Source of the DNA: Octopus sinensis
Lineage: Eukaryota
DNA length: 64,000 nucleotides
Assembly: GCF_006345805.1 (NCBI RefSeq)
Contig: NC_043023.1
Location: 17,670,001-17,734,000 of the forward strand
Direction: 5' to 3'
How positions within the stretch are numbered: position 1 is the first letter of the stretch; each line of letters starts with the position of its first letter. Positions 1-64,000 of the stretch are shown piece after piece. The notes under the pieces were generated by a model that had not been told where the DNA came from, did no database searches, and worked only from the letters and a program-made list of their open reading frames with translations. The position numbers and the translations under genes were made by a program.

Positions 1-305
1 ATACATACATACATACATACATACATACATACATACATACATACATGCATACATACATACATACATACATACATACATACACATATATATACATATATAG
101 ACATACATTTATATATAATCACAGTATACATACATGCATGCATGCATGCATACATACACATATACATACATAAACGCATACATATATGCATACATACATA
201 CATACATATATACATACATACATGCATGCATGCAAATATACATACATGTATACATATATGCTTGCATACATACACATATACATACATGCATGCATGCATA
301 CATAT

Positions 306-338
<33 letters not shown>

Positions 339-378
339 CACATATTCATGCATATATATATGTATGCATGTGTATGTA
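1..378. repeat. Degenerate (ATAC)n/(ATGC)n microsatellite
   Basis: Direct reading; paralogous tracts at ~19260-19803 and ~58338-58665. Confidence 0.95.
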
Positions 379-384
379 AGTGAA

Positions 385-643
385 GGCGCATGGCTTAGTG
401 GTTAGGGCATTCGGCTGACGATTGTAAGGTTGTGAGTTCGATTCCCGGCGAGGCGTTGTGTCCTTGAGCAAGACACTTTATTTCCCGTTGCTCCTGTACA
501 CTCAGCTGGCAAAAATGGGTTGTACCTGTATGTCAAAGGGCCGGCCTTGTCACACTCTGTGTCACGCTGAATCTCCCTGAGAACTACGTTAAGGGTACTC
601 GTGTCTGTGGATTGCTCAGTCACTTGCACGTTAATTCCACGAG
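385..643 (+). mobile_element. tRNA-derived CORE-type SINE (family A)
   Basis: Pol III A box TGGCTTAGTGG (391-401), B box GAGTTCGATTCC (~434-445), CORE-like GTGTCCTTGAGCAAGACACTTTA (~458-480). Confidence 0.85.
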
Positions 644-866
644 GGTACATATCCGGGAATATTTGTTAATGGATAACCGGCAGTCACCCATGCATAACAG
701 CATAGCCTCTCTGTGCCAACAATGTTATCCAATGGCAAGTCAAAGACAGATGCAGCTTCGGCCCAGGGATGTCACAACTCATTTCAACAGTTGAGTGAAC
801 TGGAGTAAAGTGAAATAAAGTGTCTTGCTCACTAACTTCAACACACAGCCGTTCCATGAATCGACA
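644..866 (-). mobile_element. Fragment of CORE-type SINE family B
   Basis: Reverse complement of part of the 4927-5345 element (GAGCAAGACACTTTATTTCAC core); paralogues at ~20066-20286 and ~58932-59151. Confidence 0.75.
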
Positions 867-1170
867 ATGTTCGCAAAAGTAGGAGCTACCCTCATCCCTA
901 TCACCGTGCCCGATTTTTGTCTATAATTGTCCTCGTTTAAGTTGAAGAAGTTGTTATGTAGGATGGATTTTGTTCCTTCAACAATGAATTCCTTTCTTAT
1001 TCGGTCATTTGGGAAATTTTCCTGCCAGGATTCTACAGCCATTATTCCGAAATCGTGAGGAATCGATGTGTAGAGGTTTATTATATCGAATGAAACCAGA
1101 AAGGAGTCCTTACGGGAGATAGTTTAAAAAGTTCAGATCATCCCTTATAAAACTCGGTATATGTTTCACA
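867..1170 (-). pseudogene. Penelope-like element (PLE) reverse transcriptase fragment
   Basis: Manual translation gives VKHIPSFIRDDLNFLNYLP, then after a frameshift DSFLVSFDIINLYTSIPHDFGIMAV..ILHNNFFNLNEDNYRQKSGTVIGMRVAPTFANI. This matches PLE RT motifs PSYIKD, LVSLDVxSLYTxIP and YxQxxGTAMGxxxAPxxAN. Confidence 0.85.
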
Positions 1171-1296
1171 TTCCAAAAAGTGTATCCTTCAATTTTGTAA
1201 AGAAAAATATTTCAAATTTCTGTGCAATTAGCTCTAATTTCTATTACCATATACGGTCGCATACAAAACGTGCGAAACTGGGCCGTAATCTGTCAA

Positions 1297-1411
<115 letters not shown>

Positions 1412-1465
1412 TATGTCTGTCCCCACAGCATCGCTAATATAATTATATATATATATATACATGTA

Positions 1466-1630
1466 GGCGCAGGAGTGGCTGTGTGGTAAGTAGCTTGCTA
1501 ACCAACCACATGGTTCAGGGTTCAGTCCCACTGCGTGGCATTTTGGGCAAGTGTCTTCTGCTATAGCCCCGGGCCGACTAATGCCTTGTGAGTGGATTTG
1601 GTAGACGGAAAATGAAAAAGAAGTATGTCG
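1466..1630 (+). mobile_element. tRNA-derived SINE family C, 5' half only
   Basis: A box TGGCTGTGTGG, B-box-like GGTTCAGTCCC, CORE-like TTGGGCAAGTGTCTT; full copy at 20978-21395. Confidence 0.85.
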
Positions 1631-1707
<77 letters not shown>

Positions 1708-2386
1708 TATGTATGTATATGCATATATACATATATATATATATATTGGACAGATTTCCATGCAGTTTCCATGCATAAATATGTATGTATGAATGTATGT
1801 ATGTATGTATGTATGTATGTATGTATGTATGTATGTATGTATGTATGCATGTGCGAACGTATGTATGCATATATGTAGGTCTGGTTGCATGCATATATGT
1901 ATATGTATGCGTGTATGTATGTGTGCAAGCATTCATGTATATATATATGTATGTATATATGTATATATGTGTGTATATGTATATATGTATAAATGTATGT
2001 ATGAATATACGCAAGCATGGATGAATATTTGCAAGTGCATTTATATATGAATTCTTAAATGTATTAAGGGTGTGTGTATGTGTGTTTCTGTGGCTGTTTT
2101 GAGTTTTTGTGTGTATGTATGTGTGTGTGTGTGTGTGTGTGTGTGCATGCGTTAGTGAGATATTTTGTGTGTTTGCTTGTCATCTGATTGCAACCTGACA
2201 CGTTGTTACTTTGTTTATGTCACTATAAATAAACTTTTACCGTTACAGGTCGGAAGCATAAGAACAGATTACAAATAAATAAATAAATATATAGGTCCAG
2301 TTAAAGCGACGAAAATTTTTCAAGCCGGAGCCGTAGCATGGCCACAATCCAATGAACGAAAGAAATCCAAGGTTACTAAGGAGCTT

Positions 2387-3053
2387 CTAGAAGCCTGAAG
2401 CTTGCCTATGTAACCTTTCGAGGTCAAACTTAATGGTCACAGGCTTCTGATCACTGTAGTTAACGTAGTGAAATTGTGCACGCACAAATACATCTTTAAC
2501 TATACATCTAAGAAATAGCCTGTCCATATAAGATCTAGAAGACCCATCGCTATTCATCCATGTCCACAGTGGAGCGTCTGGGTGTTCTAGTATATACAGA
2601 TTTAACCAGCAAAAAACGCTTAAGCAGATCGAAGAGATACGTGTTTCTCCTCCTATCCTATTCGAGCAAACACAATCCACTAAGGAGTGTGACGTTCCTA
2701 GAAAATTCTCTAGCCTAGAAAATTGTCTAACTGTCCGGCCGTCGGAGTTCATAAACAGCCACCAGCCTGGAAGACTTATCAATGATGAGGTTTACATCAA
2801 ATACGACCAGGCTACTCCCACCCCCGGATCAATAAAGATTACTCTTGTCGCTGAATCGAATTTTAGACCACCCCTCCTCACATTTCTCGTAGCAATTTAG
2901 GAGAGGAGAAATGCTTGTCAGTCCACTCAGCCAGGTTTCTCTAACTACTACCACATCCAAATTAAGCGACACGAGGTCATTGAGGAAAAGCCCTTATTTC
3001 CAATTCGATGACAGAATGCAAACATTAAAAGACTCAACGTTGAGAGTAAACAT
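2387..3053 (-). pseudogene. Tx1/L1-like LINE ORF2 N-terminal AP endonuclease fragment
   Basis: MFTLNVESFNV..NDLVSLNLDVVVVRETWL..LEHPDAPLWTWMNSDGSSRSYMDRLF..YSDQKPV..RQASGF, corresponding to APE motifs NV, D..ET, HP..TW..S.(I/L)DR and SDH; carries stops and frameshifts. Confidence 0.8.
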
Positions 3054-3157
3054 GAAAAAAATAATTTGGTCAACCTTAGGTTGGAGATGGGCGTTCACCC
3101 CTCCCCTTCCATTTATTTCGGAGCTTGTGAAGTCTCTGGGTGTGGGTGTGTGTGTGT

Positions 3158-3197
<40 letters not shown>

Positions 3198-4077
3198 ACG
3201 TTCATGTGTGTTCTTATCCTACGATTGCAGCTTGACACGGTGTTGTTTTGTTTATGTCTCTATAAAGCAACGTTGAGCGATCCAGGACGAAAGAAATTAA
3301 TTAGAAATTAATTAGAAATAAATTAATTAGAAATTAATAAATAAACATGTCCAGTTAATCCGTCAGAAACTCTTGAAGGCGGTGCTCCAGCATGGCCACT
3401 ATCCAATGAATGAAAAAAATCGAAGGGACTGAGCGAACTGCTAAAACCTTTGATTTAAGGTTGTTCTATAGAGCTTATTACTGAATAACTCCAACCTCCC
3501 ATGCTTCACTCTCTCCCTCCCTCTCCCTCTCTCACAAACACACACACACACACACACCCACACACACCCACCCACACACACACCCACACACACACATACA
3601 AACACACACACACATACAAACCCATACACAAATAGACACAGGGAAAGAAGCACAGGCATACAGAATAAAAGCACACACGCAGACATATACGCTAACATTA
3701 ATAGGCATATTTTCAGTCAAGGGAGGCTACTCTCTATCATATGACCTGTAATAGTGAGTTACCTCCCTTAACACTATTTTATAATTCCTTTTAAATGCGC
3801 TGAATATAAACTATTTTTTACGGCCAATCGTTTCCATTTTTTAAACATCGGAACGCAGCCATGCTGGAGCACTGCATTGAAGTGTTCAGTCAACCACACG
3901 GCGAGTAGTGCTTCTCTTTATTCAGATTGCTGCTTATTTGTTTGTTCTGGCTTCATATAACAGCTACGTTACATGGATGTAAACAAAAACAGTCGATTGT
4001 CAAGTGGTGAATATTGGACAAACAGAAACATATATGGCTATATATGTATAAGTGTGTGTGTGTGTATATATATATGT

Positions 4078-4386
4078 ATCACGTGATCACGTGACCGACA
4101 AGGCTATCAGATGTTGCTTCACATCGCTGGTCACAATGCACTTCGCATTGTTTTAGCCTTCAAATGACGCCACCCCGATGGCTAAGCAAGCAGGCCAACA
4201 GACGAAAGAGTGGGAGAAAGTTGTGGTGAAAGAGTACAGCAGGGATCACCACCAGCCCCTATCGGAGCCTAGTGGACCTATAGGTCTTTTCGCACAATAT
4301 ACACTCACAACACTCGGTCTGGGAATCGATACCGCGATACTACGACCGCGTGTCCGCTGCCCGAACCGCTCGGCCATTGCGCCTCC
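4078..4386 (-). mobile_element. tRNA-derived SINE family D (tRNA-Arg-like head), full length
   Basis: Minus strand GGAGGCGCAATGGCCGAGCGGTT (A box), GGTATCGATTCCC (B box) and a CACGTGAT-repeat tail. Confidence 0.85.
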
Positions 4387-4429
4387 ATTTATAGTATATT
4401 TATTCATTTACATATATATAATATATATA

Positions 4430-4465
<36 letters not shown>

Positions 4466-6323: not shown

Positions 6324-6504
6324 TAGCTTGCTAACGAATCCCAGTGTTCCATGTTCGGTCCCACTGCGTGGCAACTTGGGCATGTGTCTTCTACTATAGC
6401 CTCAGGCCGACCAAAGACGGGTCAGTGGATTTGGCAAACGGAAACTAAAAGAAGCCTATCGTATGTATGTCTATATATATATATATATTATATATAGATA
6501 TATC

Positions 6505-6536
<32 letters not shown>

Positions 6537-6705
6537 TATATATTTATTTATATATAGTGGATTTGTGTTAATTAGCTTGCTACGAACCACATTCTTCCAG
6601 GTTCAGTCCTGGTAACTTCGGCATGTGTCTTCTATTATAGCCCCAGGCCAACCAAAGCCTTGTCAGTGGATTTGCAAGACGGAAACTGAAAGAAGCCTAT
6701 CGTAT
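6324..6705 (+). mobile_element. Two tandem truncated SINE family C heads separated by (TA)n
   Basis: TAGCTTGCTAAC...GTGGATTTGG..ACGGAAACT occurs at ~6324-6465 and ~6572-6705. Confidence 0.7.
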
Positions 6706-14942: not shown

Positions 14943-16203
14943 CGAGGGACGTTCAATAAGTAATGCCTCTCACACACTTGCATCTGTTTGATCTAGCTGA
15001 AATTTTGCATGTGCAATCATTTATATCTCTATAGATGCAGTGGCAAATCACAGCTCTGAATTAATTGTGGTTTCTGATTTACAGGTGTTTGAACCGAGTC
15101 AAGTGTGAAATGGAGCCTGTTGAGTGTCGAGCAGTTGTCCGGTTTTTGTATTTGAAAGGACGCACACCACGGGAGACTTTTGATGAAATGAAAGTAACTT
15201 ATGGTGATGATGCCCCATCATATGACCTTGTAAAACGCTGGCAGCGTGAATTCAAACATGGTCGGAACTCTGTGGAAACAGCTCCCAGATCTGGTCGCCT
15301 CCTTCTGCCATTGATGAGACATCTGTCTGTAAATTTGAGGCTGCCATTTTGGAAGATCGACGCATAATTATTCGCCAAATAGCCCATGAGGTCAAGATTA
15401 GTACCGGGTATGTGGAAACTATCATTCATGACCATTTGCATATGCAAAAGGTGTCTGCCAGATGGATTCCCAGGTTGCTCACGCCTTTCCAGAAGCAAGA
15501 ACGCGTCGAGTGCTCGAGGGTGAATTTGGAGATGTGCCAAGAAGATGAGTCAAAATTTTTCAAAAGACTGATTACACAGGATGAGACCTGGGTCCTTCAC
15601 GATCATCCAGAGACCAAAGCCCAGTCAATGCAGTGGAAGCACCGTGACTCACCCCCTCCAAAGAAGGCAAGGGTGCAGCCCTCCGCTGGCAAGGTCAGGA
15701 CAGAGTAGTGATGATAGATTTCCTGGCAAAGGGTACCACAATTGCAGGAGCCTATTATGCTTCACTTTTGAGGAAATTGAGAGAAGCTATCAAAATCAAG
15801 AGGCGGGGCAAGATCAGCAAATGCATCCCTATCCTGCAGGACAACGCTCCGGTCCACAACTCGCTTGTCTCCAGATCAGAAGCACAGGCGTATGGCTATG
15901 AACTCCTCCCCATCTTTCATGACCTTGCACCCTCTGAATTTCACCTCTTCCCAATCATGAAGTTGTTTTTGAAAGGAAAGCGTTTCCCAGATGATGCAGC
16001 CTTGATTTCTGAAGCCACGTCGTGGTTGGAGGACCAGACAGGGTTCTTCTACAAAAACGGTCTCCAGAGCCGCATCAAACGATGGGAGAAATGCGTAACT
16101 CTGGGTGGTTCCTATGTAGAAAAAGATTAATTACTGTACCAAGTTTCGTTGCTCTACTGCTATGGGAAGTGGGTCAGGAGCATTACTTATTGAACGCCCC
16201 TCG
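14943..16203 (+). mobile_element. Full-length mariner DNA transposon (irritans/Hsmar2-like), inactive
   Basis: 24-bp TIRs CGAGGG(A/G)CGTTCAATAAGTAATGC with one mismatch, TA on both flanks (14941-14942, 16204-16205), length 1261 bp. Confidence 0.95.
15110..16130 (+). pseudogene. Mariner transposase, frameshifted
   Basis: Split over 3 ORFs: HTH region ..PRSGR, WIPRLLT, ITQDETW, LQDNAPVH and DLAPSEFHLF. The HPPYSP and VFWD segments are missing and the third catalytic D reads E. Confidence 0.93.
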
Positions 16204-19020: not shown

Positions 19021-19453
19021 CCTGTAACGCTAAACGTTGCTTTATAGTGACATAAAAAAAGTAACAACGTGTCAGGTTGCGATCAGAGGACAAGCATACA
19101 CACAAAATATCTCACTAACGCATGCACACACACACACACACATACATACATACATACACGCAAAAACAGCGACACAAACACACATACACACACCCTAAAT
19201 ACATATACGCATTCAGATATGCGTGTACATGTAAATATTCACCCATGCTTGCGTATATTCATACATACATACATACATACATACATACATACATACATAC
19301 ATACATACATACATACATACATACATACATACATACATACATACACATATATATATACATATATAGACAAACATTTATATATAATCACATATATACATAC
19401 ATGCATGCATGCATACATACACATATACATACATAAACACATACATATATGCA

Positions 19454-19487
<34 letters not shown>

Positions 19488-19809
19488 CACGCATACATAT
19501 ATGCATGCAAACATACATACAGGCATTCTTGCATGCTTACATACATAGATGCGTACATACATACATACATACATACATACATACATACATACATACATAC
19601 ATACATACATACATACATACATGCATACATACATACATATATACATACATACATGCATGCATGCAAATATACATACATGTATACATATATGCTTGCATAC
19701 ATACACATATACATACATGCATGCATGCATACATATATACATACATACATACATATATATATACACATATACATGCATATATATATGTATGCATGTGTAT
19801 GTAAGTGAA

Positions 19810-20065
19810 GGCGCATGGCTTAGTGGTTAGGGCATTCGGCTGACGATTGTAAGGTTGTGAGTTCGATTCCCGGCGAGGCGTTGTGTCCTTGAGCAAGACA
19901 CTTTATTTCCGTTGCTCTGTCCACTCAGCTGGCAAAAATGGTGGTACCTGTATGTCAAAGGGCCGGCCTTGTCACACTCTGTGTCACGCTGAATCTCCCT
20001 GAGAACTACGTTAAGGGTACTCGTGTCTGTGGGATTGCTCAGTCACTTGCACGTTAATTCCAGAG
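19810..20065 (+). mobile_element. SINE family A (duplicate of 385-643)
   Basis: Near-identical sequence and flanks. Confidence 0.85.
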
Positions 20066-20286
20066 GGTACATATCCGGGAATATTGTTAATGGATAACCG
20101 ACAGTCACCCATGCATAACAGCATAGCCTCTCTGTGCCAACAATGTTATCCAATGGCAAGTCAAAGACAGATGCAGCTTCGGCCCAGGGATGTCACAACT
20201 CATTTCAACAGTTGAGTGAACTGGAGTAAAGTGAAATAAAGTGTCTTGCTCAATAACTTCAACACACAGCCGTTCCATGAACCGAC

Positions 20287-20590
20287 AATGTTCGCAAAGG
20301 TAGAGGCGACCCTCATCCCTATCATCGTGCCCTATTTTTGTCTATAATTGTTCTCGTTAAAGTTGAAGAAGTTGTTCTGTATGATGGATTTTGTTCCTTC
20401 AACAATGAATTCTTTTCCTATTCGGTCATTTGGGAAATTTTCCTGCCAGGATTCTACAGCCATTATTCCGAAATCGTGAGGAATCGATGTGTAGAGGCTT
20501 ATTATATCGAATGAAACCAGAAAGGAGTCGTTACGGGAGATGGTTTAAAAAGATCAGATCATCCCTTATAAAACTCGGTATATGTTTCAC
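20287..20590 (-). pseudogene. Penelope-like RT fragment (duplicate of 867-1170)
   Basis: Same sequence and junctions. Confidence 0.8.
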
Positions 20591-20715
20591 ATTCCCAAAA
20601 GAGTATCCTTCAATTTTGTAAAGAAACATATTTCAAATTTCTGTGCAATTGGCTCTAATTTCTATTACCATATACGGTCGCATACAAAACGTGCGAAACA
20701 GGGCCGTAATCTGTG

Positions 20716-20762
<47 letters not shown>

Positions 20763-20839
20763 ATGTGGTGGTGTGTGTGTGTGGTGTGTGTGTCTATGTC
20801 TGTCCCCACAGCATCGCTTATATAAATATATATATATAT

Positions 20840-20969
<130 letters not shown>

Positions 20970-20977
20970 ATTATATA

Positions 20978-21141
20978 GGCGCAGGTGTGGCTGTGTGGTA
21001 AGTAGCTTGCTAACCAACCACATGGTTCAGGGTTCAGTCCCACTACGTGGATCTTGGGCAAGTGTCTTCTGCTATAGCCCCGGGCCGACCAATGGCTTGT
21101 GAGTGGATTTGGTAGACGGAAAATGAAAGAAGCGTGTCGTA

Positions 21142-21184
<43 letters not shown>

Positions 21185-21395
21185 GTTTGTGTGTCTGTGT
21201 TTGTCCCCCTAGCATTGCTTGACAACCGATGCTGGTGTGCTTACGTCCCCGTCACTTAGCGGTTCGGCAAAAAGAGACCGATAGAATAAGTAATGGGCTT
21301 ACAAAGAATAAGTCCCGGGGGTCGATTTGCTCGACTAAAGGCGGTGCCCCAGCATGGCCGCAGTCAAATGACTGAAACAAGTAAATGAAAGAGAA
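20978..21395 (+). mobile_element. Full-length SINE family C
   Basis: tRNA-like head, CORE-like segment, internal (TA)n/(TG)n, tail GGCGGTGCCCCAGCATGGCCGCAGTCAAATGACTGAAACAAGTAAA; flanked by (TA)n. Confidence 0.9.
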
Positions 21396-21439
21396 AGATA
21401 TATATATATATATATATATACATATATATACATACACAA

Positions 21440-21496
<57 letters not shown>

Positions 21497-22407
21497 GTAT
21501 GTATGTATGTATGTATGTATGTATATGCATATATACATATATATATATATATTGGACAGATTTACATGCAGTTTCCATGCATAAATATGTATGTATGAAT
21601 GTATGTATGTATGTATGTATGTATGTGTGTGTGTGTGTGTGTATGTGTGTATGCATACGTATGTATGCATGCATGCATGTATTTATGTATATATGTGATT
21701 GTATATATGCATGTATGTATATATATGCATATATGTATGTATGTATTTATATATGTATATATATATATATATGTGTGTCTGTATGTATATATATATGTGA
21801 TTGTATATATGTATGTAGGTATGTATGTATGCATGCATGTATGTATGCATGCATGTATGTATGCATGCATGTATGTATGCATGCATGTGCGAATGTATGT
21901 ATGCATATATGTAGGTCTGTTTGCATGCATATATGTATATGTATGCGTGTATGTATGTATTCAAGCATGTATGTATGTATGTATGTATATATGTATATAT
22001 GTGTGTATATGTATATATGTATAAATGTATGTATGAATATTTGCAAGTGCATTCATATCTGAATTAGTAAATGTATTAAGGGTGTGTGTATGTGTGTTTG
22101 TGTGGCTGTTTTGAGTTTTTGTGTGTATGTATGTGTGTGTGTGTGTTATGTGTGTGTGTGTGTGTGCATGCGTTAGTGAGATATTTTGTGTGTTTGCTTG
22201 TCATCTGATCGCAACCTGACACGCTGTTACTTTGTTTATGTCAATATAAAGCAACGTTTACCGTTACAGGTCGGAAGCATAAGAACAGATTACAAATAAA
22301 TAAATAAATATATAGGTCCAGTTAAAGCGACGAAAATTTTTGAAGCCGGAGCCGTAGCATGGCTACAATCCAATGAACGAAAGAAATCCAAGGTAACTAA
22401 GGAGCTT

Positions 22408-57975: not shown

Positions 57976-58672
57976 GAAGCTCCTTAGTTACCTTGGATTT
58001 CTTTCATTCATTGGATTGTGGCCCTGCTGGGGCACCGCCTTGAAGAATTTTCGTCGCTTTAACTGGACCTATATATTTTTTTTTTACTTGTAATCTGTTC
58101 TTATGCTTCCAACCTGTAACGCTAAACGTTGCTTTATATTGACATAAACAAAGTAACAACGTGTCAGGTTGCGATCAGATGACAAGCAAACACACAAAAT
58201 ATCTCACTAACGCATGCACACACATACATACATACACGCAAAAACAGCCACACAAACACACATACACACACCCTTAATACATATACGCATTCAGATATGC
58301 GTGTACATGTAAATATTCACCCATGCTTGCGTATATTCATACATACATACATACATACATACATACATACATACATACATACATACATACACACATATAT
58401 ATACATATATAGACATACATTTATATATAATCACATTATACATACATGCATGCATGCATACATACACATATACATACATAAACACATACATATATGCATA
58501 CATACATACATATATACATACATACATGCATGCATGCAAATATACATACATGTATACATATATGCTTGCATACATACACGTATACATACATGCATGCATC
58601 CATACATATATACATACATATATATACACATATTCATGCATATATATATGTATGCATGTGTATGTAAGTGAA

Positions 58673-58931
58673 GGCGCATGGCTTAGTGGTTAGGGCATTC
58701 GGCTGACGATTGTCAGGTTGTGAGTTCGATTCCCGGCGAGGCGTTGTGTCCTTGAGCAAGACAATTTATTTCCCGTTGCTCCTGTACACTCAGCTGGCAA
58801 AAATGGGTTGTACCTGTATGTCAAAGGGCCGGCCTTGTCACACTCTGTGTCACGCTGAATCTCCCTGAGAACTACGTTAAGGGTACTCGTGTCTGTGGAT
58901 TGCTCAGTCACTTGCACGTTAATTCCACGAG
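58673..58931 (+). mobile_element. SINE family A (duplicate of 385-643)
   Basis: Near-identical sequence and flanks. Confidence 0.85.
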
Positions 58932-59151
58932 GGTACATATCCGGGAATATTTGTTAATGGATAACCGGCAGTCACCCATGCATAAAGCATAGCCTCTCTG
59001 TGCCAACAATGTTATCCAATGGCAAGTCAAAGACAGATGCAGCTTCGGCCCAGGGATGTCACAACTCATTTCAACAGTTGAGTGAACTGGAGTAAAGTGA
59101 AATAAAGTGTCTTGCTCACTAACTTCAACACACAGCCGTTCCATGAATCGA

Positions 59152-59455
59152 CAATGTTCGCAAAGTAGGAGCTACCCTCATCCCTATCACCGTGCCCGAT
59201 TTTTGTCTATAATTGTCCTCGTTTAAGTTGAAGAAGTTGTTATGTAGGATGGATTTTGTTCCTTCAACAATGAATTCCTTTCTTATTCGGTCATTTGGGA
59301 AATTTTCCTGCCAGGATTCTACAGCCATTATTCCGAAATCGTGAGGAATCGATGTGTAGAGGTTTATTATATCGAATGAAACCAGAAAGGAGTCCTTACG
59401 GAGATAGTTTAAAAAGTTCAGATCATCCCTTAAAAACTCGGTATATGTTTCACAT
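59152..59455 (-). pseudogene. Penelope-like RT fragment (duplicate of 867-1170)
   Basis: Same sequence and junctions. Confidence 0.8.
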
Positions 59456-59585
59456 TCCCAAAAGTGTATCCTTCAATTTTGTAAAGAAAAATATTTCAAA
59501 TTTCTGTGCAATTGGCTCTAATTTCTATTACCATATACGGTCGCATACAAAACCTGCGAAACTGGGCCGTAATCTGTCAATTATT

Positions 59586-59617
<32 letters not shown>

Positions 59618-59666
59618 ATATGTGTGTGTGTGTGTTGTGTCTATGTCTGTCCCCACAGCATCGCTA

Positions 59667-59721
<55 letters not shown>

Positions 59722-59933
59722 ATAGGGTGGCAAAAAATTTTGTAGAATTTTTTTGTCACCAGCGGCCTAGTGGGAAAAAATTAAATAGTCATAGACCATT
59801 TATAATTTCAACATCACAATCAAGGAACGGCCATAATAGGCCATTCACCCACTAGAAATAACAGCCAAAGCTTCAACCGCAAAATAACATTAATTCCGCA
59901 AACCGAGAAAATAAAAAAAACGTTTACCCTGTA

Positions 59934-60040
59934 ATTTCTTATACGATGCACCGTTTCATCTACTGTTTAATGGTAAACTAACCTGATTAAATTAAATCAA
60001 GCCAATCTTCCATAGGCCCTTAGATTCGTCAGTAAGAAAT
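59934..60040 (-). ncRNA. Type I hammerhead ribozyme, copy 1
   Basis: Minus strand: stem I AUUUCUUA, CUGACGA, stem II AUCUA/(58 nt)/UAGAU, GAAA, stem III CGGUGCAUCG, UA, then stem I' UAAGAAAU. Predicted cleavage after GUA, between 59942 and 59941. Confidence 0.88.
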
Positions 60041-60444
60041 AGCCAGATCGGAACAGATATTTTCACGAGGCACTTCTGTCCCTGCCTCGGCAATATCTGA
60101 CCTGAAATTTTCAAATCATCGCACTCGCGCCAAATTTATCGGCAGCAAATAAATATAAGCCGCCGATTCCATTACGGAATCAACCAGAAAATTCATAATT
60201 AATCAATATAGGGTGGCAAAAAAACTTTGTAGAATTTTTTTGTCACCAGCGGCCTAGTGGGAAAAAATTAAATAGTCATAGACCATTTATAAGTTCAACA
60301 TCACAATCAAGGAACGGCCATAATAGGCCATTCACCCACTAGAAATAACAGCCAAAGCTTCAACCGCAAAATAACATTAATTTTAATTCTGCAAACCAGG
60401 AGAAAATTTTAAAAAATAAAAAAAAACAAAACGTTTACCCTGTA

Positions 60445-60551
60445 ATTTCTTATACGATGCACCGTTTCATCCACTGTTTAATGGTAAACTAACCTGATTA
60501 AATTAAATCAAGCCAATCTTCCATAGGCCCTTAGATTCGTCAGTAAGAAAT
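60445..60551 (-). ncRNA. Type I hammerhead ribozyme, copy 2
   Basis: Identical core; stem II is AUCUA/UGGAU (U-G wobble keeps pairing). Predicted cleavage between 60453 and 60452. Confidence 0.88.
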
Positions 60552-60737
60552 AGTCAGATCGGAACAGATATTTTCACGAGGCACTTCTGTCCCTGCCTCG
60601 GCAATATCTGACCTAAAATTTTCAAATCATCGCACTCGCGCCAAATTTATCGGCGGCAAATAAATATAAGCCGCCGATTCCATTACGGAATCAACCAGAA
60701 AATTCATAATTAATCAATATAGGGTGGCAAAAAAAAA

Positions 60738-61148
60738 CATGGTTCAGGGTTCAGTCCCACTGCGTGGCATTTTGGGCAGGTGTCTTCTGCTATAGCCCCG
60801 GGCCGACTAATGCCTTGTGAGTGGATTTGGTAGACCGAAAATGAAAGAAGCCTGTCGTATATATGTATAATATATATATATATATATATAATATATATAT
60901 ATTATATATATATATATATATATATTATGTATGTTGTGTTGTGTGTCTGTGTTTGTCCCCCTAGCATTGCTTGACAACCGATGCTGGTGTGATTACGTCC
61001 CCGTCATCTAGCGGTTCGGCAAAAAGAGACCGATAGAATAAGTACTGGGCTTACAAAGAATAAGTCCCGGGGGTTGATTTGCTCGACTAAAGGCGGTGCT
61101 CCAGCATGGCCGCAGTCAAATGACTGAAACAAGTAAAAGAAAGAGAAA
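60738..61148 (+). mobile_element. SINE family C lacking its first ~45 bp
   Basis: Starts at CATGGTTCAGGGTTCAG directly after the tandem element; the remainder matches 21021-21395. Confidence 0.88.
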
Positions 61149-61214
<66 letters not shown>

Positions 61215-61956
61215 ATACATATATATATACATATATATAAAATATATAATATATATATATATATATATAGATATATATATATATATATTATATATATATA
61301 TGTATGTATGTATGTATGTATATGCATATATACATATATATATATATATTGGACAGATTTCCATGCAGTTTCCATGCATAAATATGTATGTATGAATGTA
61401 TGTATGTATGTATGTATGTATGTATGTATGTATGTATGCATGTATGTATGCATGCATGTATGTATGCATGCATGTGCGAACGTATGTATGCATATATGTA
61501 TATGCATGCGTGTATGTATGTATGCAAGCATGCATGTATATATATATATATATGTGTATGTATATAGGTATATATGTGTGTATATGTATATATGTATAAA
61601 TGTATGTATGAATATACGCAAGCATGGATGAATATTTGCAAGTGCATTCATATCTGATTGCGTATATGTATTAAGGGTGTGTGTGTGTGTGTGTGTGTCT
61701 GTGTGTGTGTGTGTGCATGCGTTAGTGAGATATTTTGTGTGTATGCTTGTCATCTGATCGCAACCTGACACGTTGTTACTTTGTTTATGTCACTATAAAT
61801 AAACTTTTACCGTTACAGGTCGGAAGCATAAGAACAGATTACAAATAAATAAATAAATATATAGGTCCAGTTAAAGCGACGAAAATTTTTCAAGCCGGAG
61901 CCGTAGCATGGCCACAATCCAATGAACGAAAGAAATCCAAGGTTACTAAGGAGCTT

Positions 61957-62623
61957 CTAGAAGCCTGAAGCTTGCCTATGTAACCTTTCGAGGTCAAACT
62001 TAATGGTCACAGGCTTCTGATCACTGTAGTTGACGTAGTGAAATTGTGCACGCACAAATACATCTTTAACTATACATCTAAGAAATAGCCTGTCCATATA
62101 AGATCTAGAAGACCCATCGCTATTCATCCATGTCCACAGTGGAGCGTCTGGGTGTTCTAGTATATACAGATTTAACCAGCAAAAAACGCTTAAGCAGATC
62201 GAAGAGATACGTGTTTCTCCTCCTATCCTATTCGAGCAAACGCAATCCACTAAGGAGTGTGACGTTCCTAGAAAATTCTCTAGCCTAGAAAATTGTCTAA
62301 CTGTCCGGCCGTCGGAGTTCATAAACAGCCCCCAGCCTGAAAGACTTATCAATGATGAGGGTTACATCAAAGACGACCAGGCTACTCCCACCCCCGGATC
62401 AATAAAGATTACTCTTGTCGCTGAATCGAATTTTAGACCACCTATCCTCACATTTCTCGTAGCAATTTAGGAGAGGAGAAATGCTTGTCAGTCCACTCAG
62501 CCAGGTTTCTCTAACTACTACAACATCCAAATTAAGCGACACGAGGTCATTGAGGAAAAGCCCTTATTTCCAATTCGATGATAGAATGCAAATATTGAAA
62601 GACTCAACGTTGAGAGTAAACAT
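61957..62623 (-). pseudogene. Tx1/L1-like endonuclease fragment (duplicate of 2387-3053)
   Basis: Near-identical ORF-track translation. Confidence 0.8.
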
Positions 62624-62751
62624 GAAAAAAATAATTTGGTCAACCTTAGGTTGGAGATGGGCGTTCACTCCTCCCCTTCCATTTATTTCGGAGCTTGTGA
62701 AGTCTCTGGGTGTGTGTTTGTGTGTGTGTGAGTGTGTGTGTGTGTGTGGTG

Positions 62752-62786
<35 letters not shown>

Positions 62787-63620
62787 ACACGTTCATGTGT
62801 GTTCTTATCCTACGATTGCAGCCTGACACGGTGTTGCTTTGTTTATGTCTCTATAAAGCAACGTTGAGCGATCCAGGACGAAAGAAAAAGGAAAAATTAG
62901 AAATTAATAAATAAACATGTCCAGTTAATCCGTCAGAAACTCTTGAAGGCGGTGCTCCAGCATGGCCACTATCCAATGAATGAAAAAAATCGAAGGGACT
63001 GAGCAAACTGCTAAAACCTTTGATTTAAGGATGTTCTATAGAGCTTATTACTGAATAACTCCAACCTCCCATGCTTCACTCTCTCCTTCCCTCTCCCTCT
63101 CTCACAAACACACACACCCACACCCACCCACACACACACATACACACACACACACACACATACAAACCCATACACAAATAGACACAGGGAAAGAAGCACA
63201 GGCACACAGAATAAAAGCACACGCGCAGAAATATACGCTAACGTTAATACGCATATTTTACGTCAAGGGAGGCTACTCTCTATTATATGACCTGTAATTG
63301 TGAATTATCTCCCTTAACACTATTTTATAATTCTTTTTAGATGCGCTGAATATAACCTACATTTTACGGACTATCGATTGTATTTCTTAAACATTTGAAG
63401 GCTGTCATGCTGGAGCACTGCATTGAAGTGTTTAGTCAACCACACAGCGTGTTGTGCTTCTCTTCATTCAGATTGCTGCTTATTTGTTTGTTCTGTCTTC
63501 ATATAACAGCTACGTTACATGGATGTAAACAAAAACAGTTGATGTCAAGTGGTGAATATTGGACAAACAGAAGCATATATGGCTATATATGTATAAGTGT
63601 GTGTGTGTGTATATATATAT

Positions 63621-63927
63621 GACGTGATCACGTGACCGACAAGGCTATCAGATGTTGCTTCACATCGCTGGTCACAATGCACTTCGCATTGTTTTAGCCT
63701 TCAAATGACGCCACCCCGATGGCTAAGCAAGCAGGCCAACAGACGAAAGAGTGGGAGAAAGTTGTGGCGAAAGAGTACAGCAGGGATCCCCACCAGCCCC
63801 TGTCGGAGCCTAGTGGAGCTATAGGTGATTTCGAACACCATACACTCACAACGCTCGGTCTGGGAATCGAAAACGCGATACTACGACCGCGTGTCCGCTG
63901 CCCGAACCACTCGGCCATTGCGCCTCC
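63621..63927 (-). mobile_element. SINE family D (duplicate of 4078-4386)
   Basis: Same sequence and flanks. Confidence 0.85.
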
Positions 63928-63952
63928 ATTTATATATGTATATTTATTCATT

Positions 63953-64000
<48 letters not shown>

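What the first reader, a model, noticed from the sequence alone, without database searches (positions are those of the whole stretch)
59717..60737. Tandem dimer with one type I hammerhead ribozyme per unit: candidate retrozyme / circular-RNA retroelement
Seen: two head-to-tail non-coding units (486 and 511 bp) plus a 24-bp third start. Each has a complete minus-strand hammerhead core (CUGACGA...GAAA...GUA) with a perfect 8-bp stem I (AUUUCUUA/UAAGAAAU), a 5-bp stem II and a short stem III. The two predicted cut sites are 511 nt apart. Established: tandem small repeats with type I hammerheads in animals (non-LTR retrozymes, Penelope-associated hammerheads) self-cleave to monomers that can circularise. 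Inference: a minus-strand transcript would release a 511-nt monomer (60452 to 59942) that could form a circRNA and be re-inserted by a borrowed RT. The unit seems long for animal retrozymes and may be an undescribed family.
Basis: partly seen in the sequence, partly recalled or inferred. Interest (0 to 1): 0.92.

Follow-up and report, generated by a model that had tools for sequence, protein, structure and literature searches.

The report
Penelope-mobilised hammerhead retrozyme with two-ended insertions
This is one copy of a ~490-base non-coding repeat that carries a hammerhead-ribozyme fold in every unit and sits at about a thousand TA-microsatellite sites in this genome, in a two-armed pattern that shows it was likely copied in from RNA by the enzyme of Penelope-like retrotransposons.

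Summary
Observation confirmed: two minus-strand type I hammerhead folds, cut sites 511 nt apart. The family has 2,875 core-pattern hits genome-wide, control 0, and compensatory changes in all helices. New here is the insertion footprint. All 76 other loci examined touch (TA)n; 53 carry two back-to-back arms whose outer ends fall at two fixed sites 104 nt apart, always one of each, never two alike. Both arms share one haplotype in 38 of 39 loci (5% expected). Intact Penelope-like elements (PLEs) in the same genome leave the same footprint, and two-site initiation is the known PLE 'tail' mechanism (PMC11167929). So: a non-LTR retrozyme, likely mobilised by PLE reverse transcriptase, probably Hydra-type. 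Arms run through the cut site 247 times and stop there 6 times, fitting a circular or uncleaved template. The window copy is a single arm inserted after a local duplication (empty paralogues at 1430-1510 and 20810-21020). Cleavage, circles and the partner are untested; RNA data were uninformative. Unit length is not unusual. The scan noted a similar footprint for a tRNA-bearing repeat in another genome (e1-7810660).

The parts
59717..60202 (-). Retrozyme unit, 486 bp (3' unit in RNA sense); ends at the outer RT start site E1 against (TA)n
60203..60713 (-). Retrozyme unit, 511 bp (about 25 nt of local slippage insertions)
60714..60737 (-). 24-nt 3' stub of a 5'-truncated upstream unit; 5' junction of the insertion
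60445..60551 (-). Type I hammerhead 1: stem I 60551-60544/60452-60445, C3 60543, predicted cut after 60453 (GUA)
   Evidence: covariation
59934..60040 (-). Type I hammerhead 2: C3 60032, predicted cut after 59942 (GUA); long domain II
59943..59954 (-). Self-complementary stem III region (also 60454-60465), predicted double-hammerhead interface
   Evidence: duplex -19.5 kcal/mol vs hairpin -1.2; palindrome kept in three other variants
59942..60452 (-). Predicted 511-nt monomer between the two cut sites
   Evidence: cleavage untested
59717..59812 (-). 'Tail' between inner RT start site E2 (unit position ~391; window 59813 and 60300) and outer site E1 (unit position ~495; window ~59717 and 60195)
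   Evidence: end mapping in 76 loci
59667..59716 (.). (TA)n target microsatellite
   Evidence: present in the empty paralogues
60738..61146 (+). Flanking SINE-like repeat lacking the first 42-47 nt present in the empty paralogues (target deletion or later deletion)
   Evidence: SINE label recalled
59150..59578 (-). Broken Neptune-type PLE RT fragment; older bystander, also present beside the empty sites

Best explanation
The repeat is a non-coding, hammerhead-bearing mobile element (non-LTR retrozyme) that sits in (TA)n sites as two outward-facing arms ending at two fixed points, and is likely inserted by a Penelope-like RT/endonuclease copying one monomer-derived, probably circular, RNA from those two points. 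Shown by sequence: hammerhead fold under selection, dispersal at roughly 1,100 loci, (TA)n target, E1/E2 end pairing, random 5' breakpoints, one haplotype per locus, same footprint in intact PLEs. Inferred: minus-strand transcripts self-cleave (likely helped by a double hammerhead through the palindromic stem III) to ~490-nt monomers that are ligated; a PLE protein nicks both strands of (TA)n, primes one strand at E1 and the other at E2, and copies round the template, giving head-to-tail units; the two cDNAs are joined at their variable far ends by short microhomology. Odds by step: PLE-mobilised retrozyme 0.9; active ribozyme 0.85; both arms from one RNA or sister monomers 0.8; template circular 0.5; partner of Hydra type rather than Neptune type 0.6.
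For: Core intact in 131 of 137 copies, only N7 varies freely; 11 of 35 pairs with two-sided changes, 97.6% of cells paired, 0/500 shuffles, slid controls 26-47% (related sequences inflate this). 76 of 76 loci have (TA)n on at least one side, 68 on both; 53 of 76 are E1+E2, 0 E1+E1, 0 E2+E2; all 53 mixed-strand loci point 3' ends outward. Units differ 0.7% within an arm, 0.8% across arms, 5.1% between loci; arms match in 38 of 39 loci vs 74 of 1,466 cross-locus pairs; 25 haplotype classes in 58 loci; 14 locus-private variants fixed in all units, 7 across both arms. 247 read-throughs of the cut site vs 6 stops. Intact PLE ORFs exist and show (TA)n target, inverted arms and short/long ends. Hydra-type copies (DKT and CxCx5C in 3 of 3 ORFs checked, RWK in 1) have long-domain-II hammerheads, palindromic loop III, GUA and tails of ~75-120 nt, like this unit; Neptune-type have minimal hammerheads and ~40-nt tails. 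Two-site internal initiation on both strands shown in vitro for a PLE (PMC11167929); inverted arm with tail at one end described (PMC8557442). Two sister families (about 75% and 62-64% identical) keep unit length, palindrome and two-ended footprint.
Against: No cleavage or circle was observed; nothing here tests them. In one study only 1 of 9 Xenopus retrozyme dimers cleaved in vitro (bioRxiv 2026.07.22.740005), and the PLE hammerhead was dispensable for insertion in vitro with unprocessed RNA the main substrate (PMC11167929), so an uncleaved multimer could be the template. 19 variants are shared by only some units of a locus, 5 across arms, and the 27-unit array L117/L118 is an aperiodic mosaic of close haplotypes, which one circle cannot give. 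Stops at the cut site are slightly in excess (6 of 115 arms, p=0.05). No sequence homology to the ends of the PLE families sampled in 40 loci; first site lies 129 nt after the cut vs 30-44 nt in Hydra-type elements. Rfam has no hit. Loci were chosen for holding a unit or hammerhead, which inflates read-through counts. Assembly polishing may homogenise units.
Confidence: 0.72

Rival explanations
1. Same PLE-driven insertion, but the template is a long uncleaved read-through transcript of a parent array; the hammerhead is incidental to insertion and circles, if made, are by-products.
For: Hammerhead mutants did not affect PLE insertion in vitro (PMC11167929); mosaic array L117/L118; 19 partly shared variants.
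Against: 25 haplotype classes, each internally uniform, need a repeated monomer-to-array step; 7 private variants fixed across both arms; the L117/L118 mosaics of the two arms do not follow the same order; catalytic core conserved over three families.
Confidence: 0.3
2. Monomers or short arms are inserted by a PLE and the arrays grow afterwards by unequal crossover and gene conversion, as a minisatellite (model favoured in bioRxiv 2026.07.22.740005).
For: Neighbouring units share variants in a few loci (L045, L080, L116); recombinant haplotype in L117/L118.
Against: Variation is mostly star-like (177 singletons vs 19 shared); arrays are short (100 hammerheads in 39 loci) yet both arms are multimeric; inverted arms of two-unit loci already match.
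Confidence: 0.12
3. The unit is the pseudo-LTR of an autonomous PLE not yet sampled, and the arrays are its truncated insertions.
For: Same footprint as PLEs; only 76 of ~1,100 loci and 40 loci of PLE ORFs were examined; 14,034 and 10,928 RT candidates exist, 150 scored each.
Against: Units follow each other with a 490-bp period and no ORF; 5' flanks of single arms are (TA)n or unrelated to each other; no PLE sequence continues a unit without a (TA) spacer; three families keep the whole unit.
Confidence: 0.07
4. A DNA element (Helitron/Helentron derivative or MITE) with TA preference.
For: Tandem units, terminal hairpin, TA flanks.
Against: The two outer ends differ (no TIR), inner breakpoints are random, 3' ends always face outward, and an RNA catalytic core covaries.
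Confidence: 0.02

Closest known systems
Non-LTR retrozymes of animals (Cervera & de la Pena 2020, PMC7229834; Li, Clavereau & Pollet 2026, bioRxiv 10.64898/2026.07.22.740005)
   Same: Non-coding tandem units, one type I hammerhead each, low GC (37%), dimers to long multimers, co-occurrence with PLEs.
   Different: Long domain II; no PLE parent by sequence found; two-armed inverted insertions with fixed unequal ends in (TA)n ('inverted' and 'microsatellite' have 0 occurrences in the main text of PMC7229834; not described in the preprint's main text); expression and cleavage untested here.
EN+ Penelope-like elements, esp. Hydra clade (Craig et al. 2021, PMC8557442) and PAc (Frangieh et al. 2024, PMC11167929)
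   Same: (TA)n target, 5'-truncated inverted arm, tail on one end only, type I hammerhead upstream of the ends.
   Different: No ORF; tail 104 nt vs the published 30-40 (but 75-120 nt in this genome's Hydra-type copies); exact multi-unit arrays rather than partial tandems.
Non-autonomous Chlamys elements such as MRC1 (PMC8557442, passage)
   Same: Non-autonomous PLE dependants with multicopy head-to-tail insertions.
   Different: Those resemble their autonomous partner at the 3' end and most Chlamys lack hammerheads.
Newt/axolotl satellite-2 hammerheads (PMC7229834, passages)
   Same: Palindromic loop III suited to dimeric cleavage.
   Different: Stem III is 4 bp here rather than 1-2; unit longer.

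Membership tests
Non-LTR retrozyme | Type I hammerhead core and three stems in each unit | tested here: met
   (131 of 137 cores intact)
Non-LTR retrozyme | Head-to-tail units of a few hundred bp, dispersed, GC under 50% | tested here: met
   median 490 bp, GC 37%; above the 150-450 bp of PMC7229834, within 51-972 bp of the 2026 preprint
Non-LTR retrozyme | No protein ORF, no LTR organisation | tested here: met
   no ORF of 150 aa or more over 59717-60737; none of 200 aa or more within units of other loci; PBS/PPT not searched
Non-LTR retrozyme | Self-cleavage of the transcript | not testable with these tools
   bench assay needed
Non-LTR retrozyme | Expressed as linear and circular monomers | tested here: inconclusive
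   only contigs of runs guessed to be RNA
Non-LTR retrozyme | Loop I-loop II tertiary contact of canonical hammerheads | not tested
   domain II is atypically long; contact not modelled
Rfam hammerhead models | Covariance-model hit | tested here: not met
   no hit to E=10; likely the long domain II (inference)
PLE-type insertion footprint | Inverted 5'-truncated arm, 3' ends outward | tested here: met
   53 of 53 mixed-strand loci
PLE-type insertion footprint | Tail at one end only (two RT start sites) | tested here: met
   53 E1+E2, 0 like pairs; tail 104 nt
PLE-type insertion footprint | Microsatellite target bias | tested here: met
   76 of 76 loci; empty paralogues
Autonomous PLE (unit as its pseudo-LTR) | RT + GIY-YIG ORF joined to the unit | tested here: not met
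   none in 76 loci or 40 PLE loci; sampling not exhaustive
Hydra-clade dependant | Shared 3'-end sequence with a Hydra-type PLE | tested here: inconclusive
   architecture alike, no BLAST homology; short shared motif post hoc, 3.7% chance per window

The most novel reading that the evidence does not exclude
Each two-armed insertion is the genomic record of one circular ribozyme RNA being copied by rolling-circle reverse transcription from two different start sites at once, one per nicked strand, by a dimeric Hydra-type Penelope RT; the retrozyme circle is thus a true transposition intermediate, and this family superimposes on it a strict one-site-per-strand rule.
Probability: 0.35. Interest if true: 0.82.

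Novelty: new member of a known kind. Interest (0 to 1): 0.58.

Why it matters
How animal retrozymes get back into the genome is still a hypothesis (PMC7229834 proposes a primed circle and names PLEs as candidates; the 2026 preprint adds co-occurrence and pLTR similarity). This family carries the PLE enzyme's signature directly, in hundreds of young copies, with exact start sites and intact candidate enzymes in the same genome. That gives a small defined template for testing circle-templated TPRT and for explaining why PLE insertions have a tail on one end only.

Tried and rejected
Rfam scans: only microsatellite-driven miRNA noise, no hammerhead. Tandem Repeats Finder missed the array (period cap 500). 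RNA: no RNA holder listed on record; 14 of 20 runs were only guessed to be RNA, in four coded organisms; four runs laid were contigs, which cover the unit but show no ends, strand or circles. Adjacent PLE RT fragment as parent: rejected, it flanks the empty paralogues too. Search for a parent pLTR by BLAST of family 1 against 40 PLE loci and family 2 against 20 of them: only chance hits or independent retrozyme insertions. Search for retrozyme-PLE chimaeras: only neighbours sharing a microsatellite. Enrichment of 5' ends at the cut site: 8 of 104 within 10 nt, p=0.08. A YCT-N-TTG motif precedes both ends and the ends of one Hydra-type family, but spacing differs and it was found post hoc. RNAalifold on whole units missed stems I and II as long-range pairs. 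Plus-strand hammerhead: none. Scan look-up by sequence: nothing. Dfam and Repbase were not available.

Full report
OBSERVATION. The array is 486 + 511 + 24 bp at 59717-60737. Each full unit has a minus-strand type I hammerhead with stem I 8 bp, stem II base 5 bp, stem III 4 bp and a GUA cut triplet; predicted cuts lie after 60453 and 59942. Domain II continues into a long hairpin. Rfam does not detect it. The genome is microsatellite-rich, 2.7 Gb, and looks octopod to me (recalled SINE features; no call names the organism).

IS THE RIBOZYME REAL? Among 137 copies from 38 loci and the window, core positions are nearly invariant, N7 varies (C 78, A 42, U 17), and stems change in pairs, e.g. stem I A-U to G-C in 21 copies and stem II A-U to G-C in 42; 131 of 137 cores are intact. 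On 16 hand-picked variants from two families, 11 of 35 pairs change on both sides and 97.6% of cells pair, against 26-47% for slid structures (relatedness inflates the shuffle control, and the structure was derived from the window copy). Pair 10.1-11.1 is often unpaired (7 of 16). The 12 nt of stem III form a self-duplex of -19.5 kcal/mol against -1.2 for the hairpin. A pattern search for other palindromic variants found 575 copies of one, and a third family has another. This suggests double-hammerhead cleavage as in amphibian retrozymes (PMC7229834, passages); inference only.

FAMILY. An exact core pattern hits 2,875 places, reversed control 0; the first 100 hits fall in 39 loci, so about 1,100 loci (extrapolated). 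Two sister families lie at about 75% identity (~470 bp, 1,113 first-look candidates) and 62-64% (~486 bp, 1,251 candidates).

FOOTPRINT. I examined 76 loci besides the window: 38 from the similarity ranking and its neighbourhood, and the first 39 along contig C1, one shared. One of the 76 (L068) is the sister family. All touch (TA)n, 68 on both sides. 53 have both strands, all with 3' ends outward. Outer ends fall at unit position ~391 (E2) or ~495 (E1), 104 nt apart. 53 loci have one of each (47 plain two-arm loci, one duplicated locus, five with a second arm of under ~30 nt recognised by motif); none has two alike; 21 have one unassigned end and 2 run off the fetched stretch. Inner breakpoints are spread over the unit, usually with 0-7 nt overlap or short fill-ins. 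Median arm lengths are 698 and 662 nt, the longest 10.4 kb.

THE WINDOW COPY is a single E1 arm. The window holds segmental duplicates; at 1430-1510 and 20810-21020 the same site has only (TA)n followed by an intact SINE head. The nearby marker fragment is 99% and 95% identical in those copies, so the insertion is young. The filled site lacks an E2 arm and 42-47 nt of the SINE head; target deletion at insertion and later deletion cannot be told apart.

TEMPLATE. Units differ 0.7% within arms, 0.8% across arms and 5.1% between loci (38 loci plus the window). Arms match at no more than one of 54 diagnostic columns in 38 of 39 loci, against 5% of cross-locus pairs; 58 loci fall in 25 haplotype classes. 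In 66 loci, on 330 of 486 columns, there are 177 singletons, 19 partly shared and 14 fixed locus-private variants, 7 across both arms. Arms cross the cut site 247 times and stop within 5 nt of it 6 times in 115 arms from 69 loci (seven loci with complex centres or of the sister family left out). So cleaved linear monomers are not the usual template, both arms come from one RNA or its sisters, and new haplotypes pass through a monomer. A circle explains this simply. Against it: the 27-unit array L117/L118 is an aperiodic mosaic, and uncleaved RNA suffices in vitro for a PLE (PMC11167929).

PARTNER. Intact PLE ORFs of 770-1,100 aa exist. Neptune-type families (GxKF, DKG, Cx2-5CxxC) show (TA)n, inverted arms, minimal U3-A8 hammerheads and ~40-nt tails. 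Hydra-type families (DKT, CxCx5C, RWK in one; criteria from PMC8557442 section 11) show long domain II, palindromic loop III, GUA, a short end 30-44 nt and a long end about 110-158 nt after the cut. The retrozyme resembles the latter in build but not in sequence.

LITERATURE. Read: bioRxiv 10.64898/2026.07.22.740005 parts 1-3 of 5 (main text; supplements closed); PMC11167929 parts 1-2 of 4 (main text, start of methods); PMC8557442 passages and section 11; PMC7229834 passages; PMC13282606 passages (an octopus repeat annotation with 0 occurrences of hammerhead, retrozyme or ribozyme in its main text). Seven searches listed no paper on an octopus retrozyme or on inverted two-site retrozyme insertions. 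Supplements and repeat libraries were not seen and may hold this unit as an unclassified or Penelope family.

VERDICT. A real, young, high-copy non-LTR retrozyme family: a new member of a known kind. Its value lies in the footprint that ties it to PLE enzymes and makes the circle-template model testable.

Noticed in passing
L068:2403-3909 (G000:C27:17736403-17737922, just right of the window): Sister retrozyme family (~470 bp, ~75% identical, copies 94-99% alike) with the same two-ended footprint; in this locus all units share a deletion in the 3' side of stem I.
   Followed up: partly
L132:985-1320, L179-L190: Third, older family (~486 bp, 62-64% identical) with hammerhead, palindromic stem III and E1/E2-like ends.
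   Followed up: partly
L147, L149, L151, L159-L162 and others: Young, intact Hydra-type PLEs with long-domain-II hammerheads and tails of 75-120 nt, longer than the published 30-40 nt.
   Followed up: partly
L119-L134 (e.g. L119 about 6400-6560): Neptune-type PLEs whose hammerheads carry the U3-A8 core variant (UUGAAAA).
   Followed up: no
L117/L118 (G000:C25:28657158-28669837): 27-unit two-armed array with an aperiodic mosaic of close haplotypes, one recombinant.
   Followed up: partly
window 1-4457, 19429-21500, 58332-64000 and others: The window is largely segmental duplicates and inverted repeats of SINE/LINE-rich blocks at 90-98% identity.
   Followed up: partly
L102:1581-1754: A family-1 arm joined to a family-3-like tail fragment; nested insertion or template switch.
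   Followed up: no
window 15250-16127: Broken mariner-like transposase reading frames (label recalled, not scanned).
   Followed up: no
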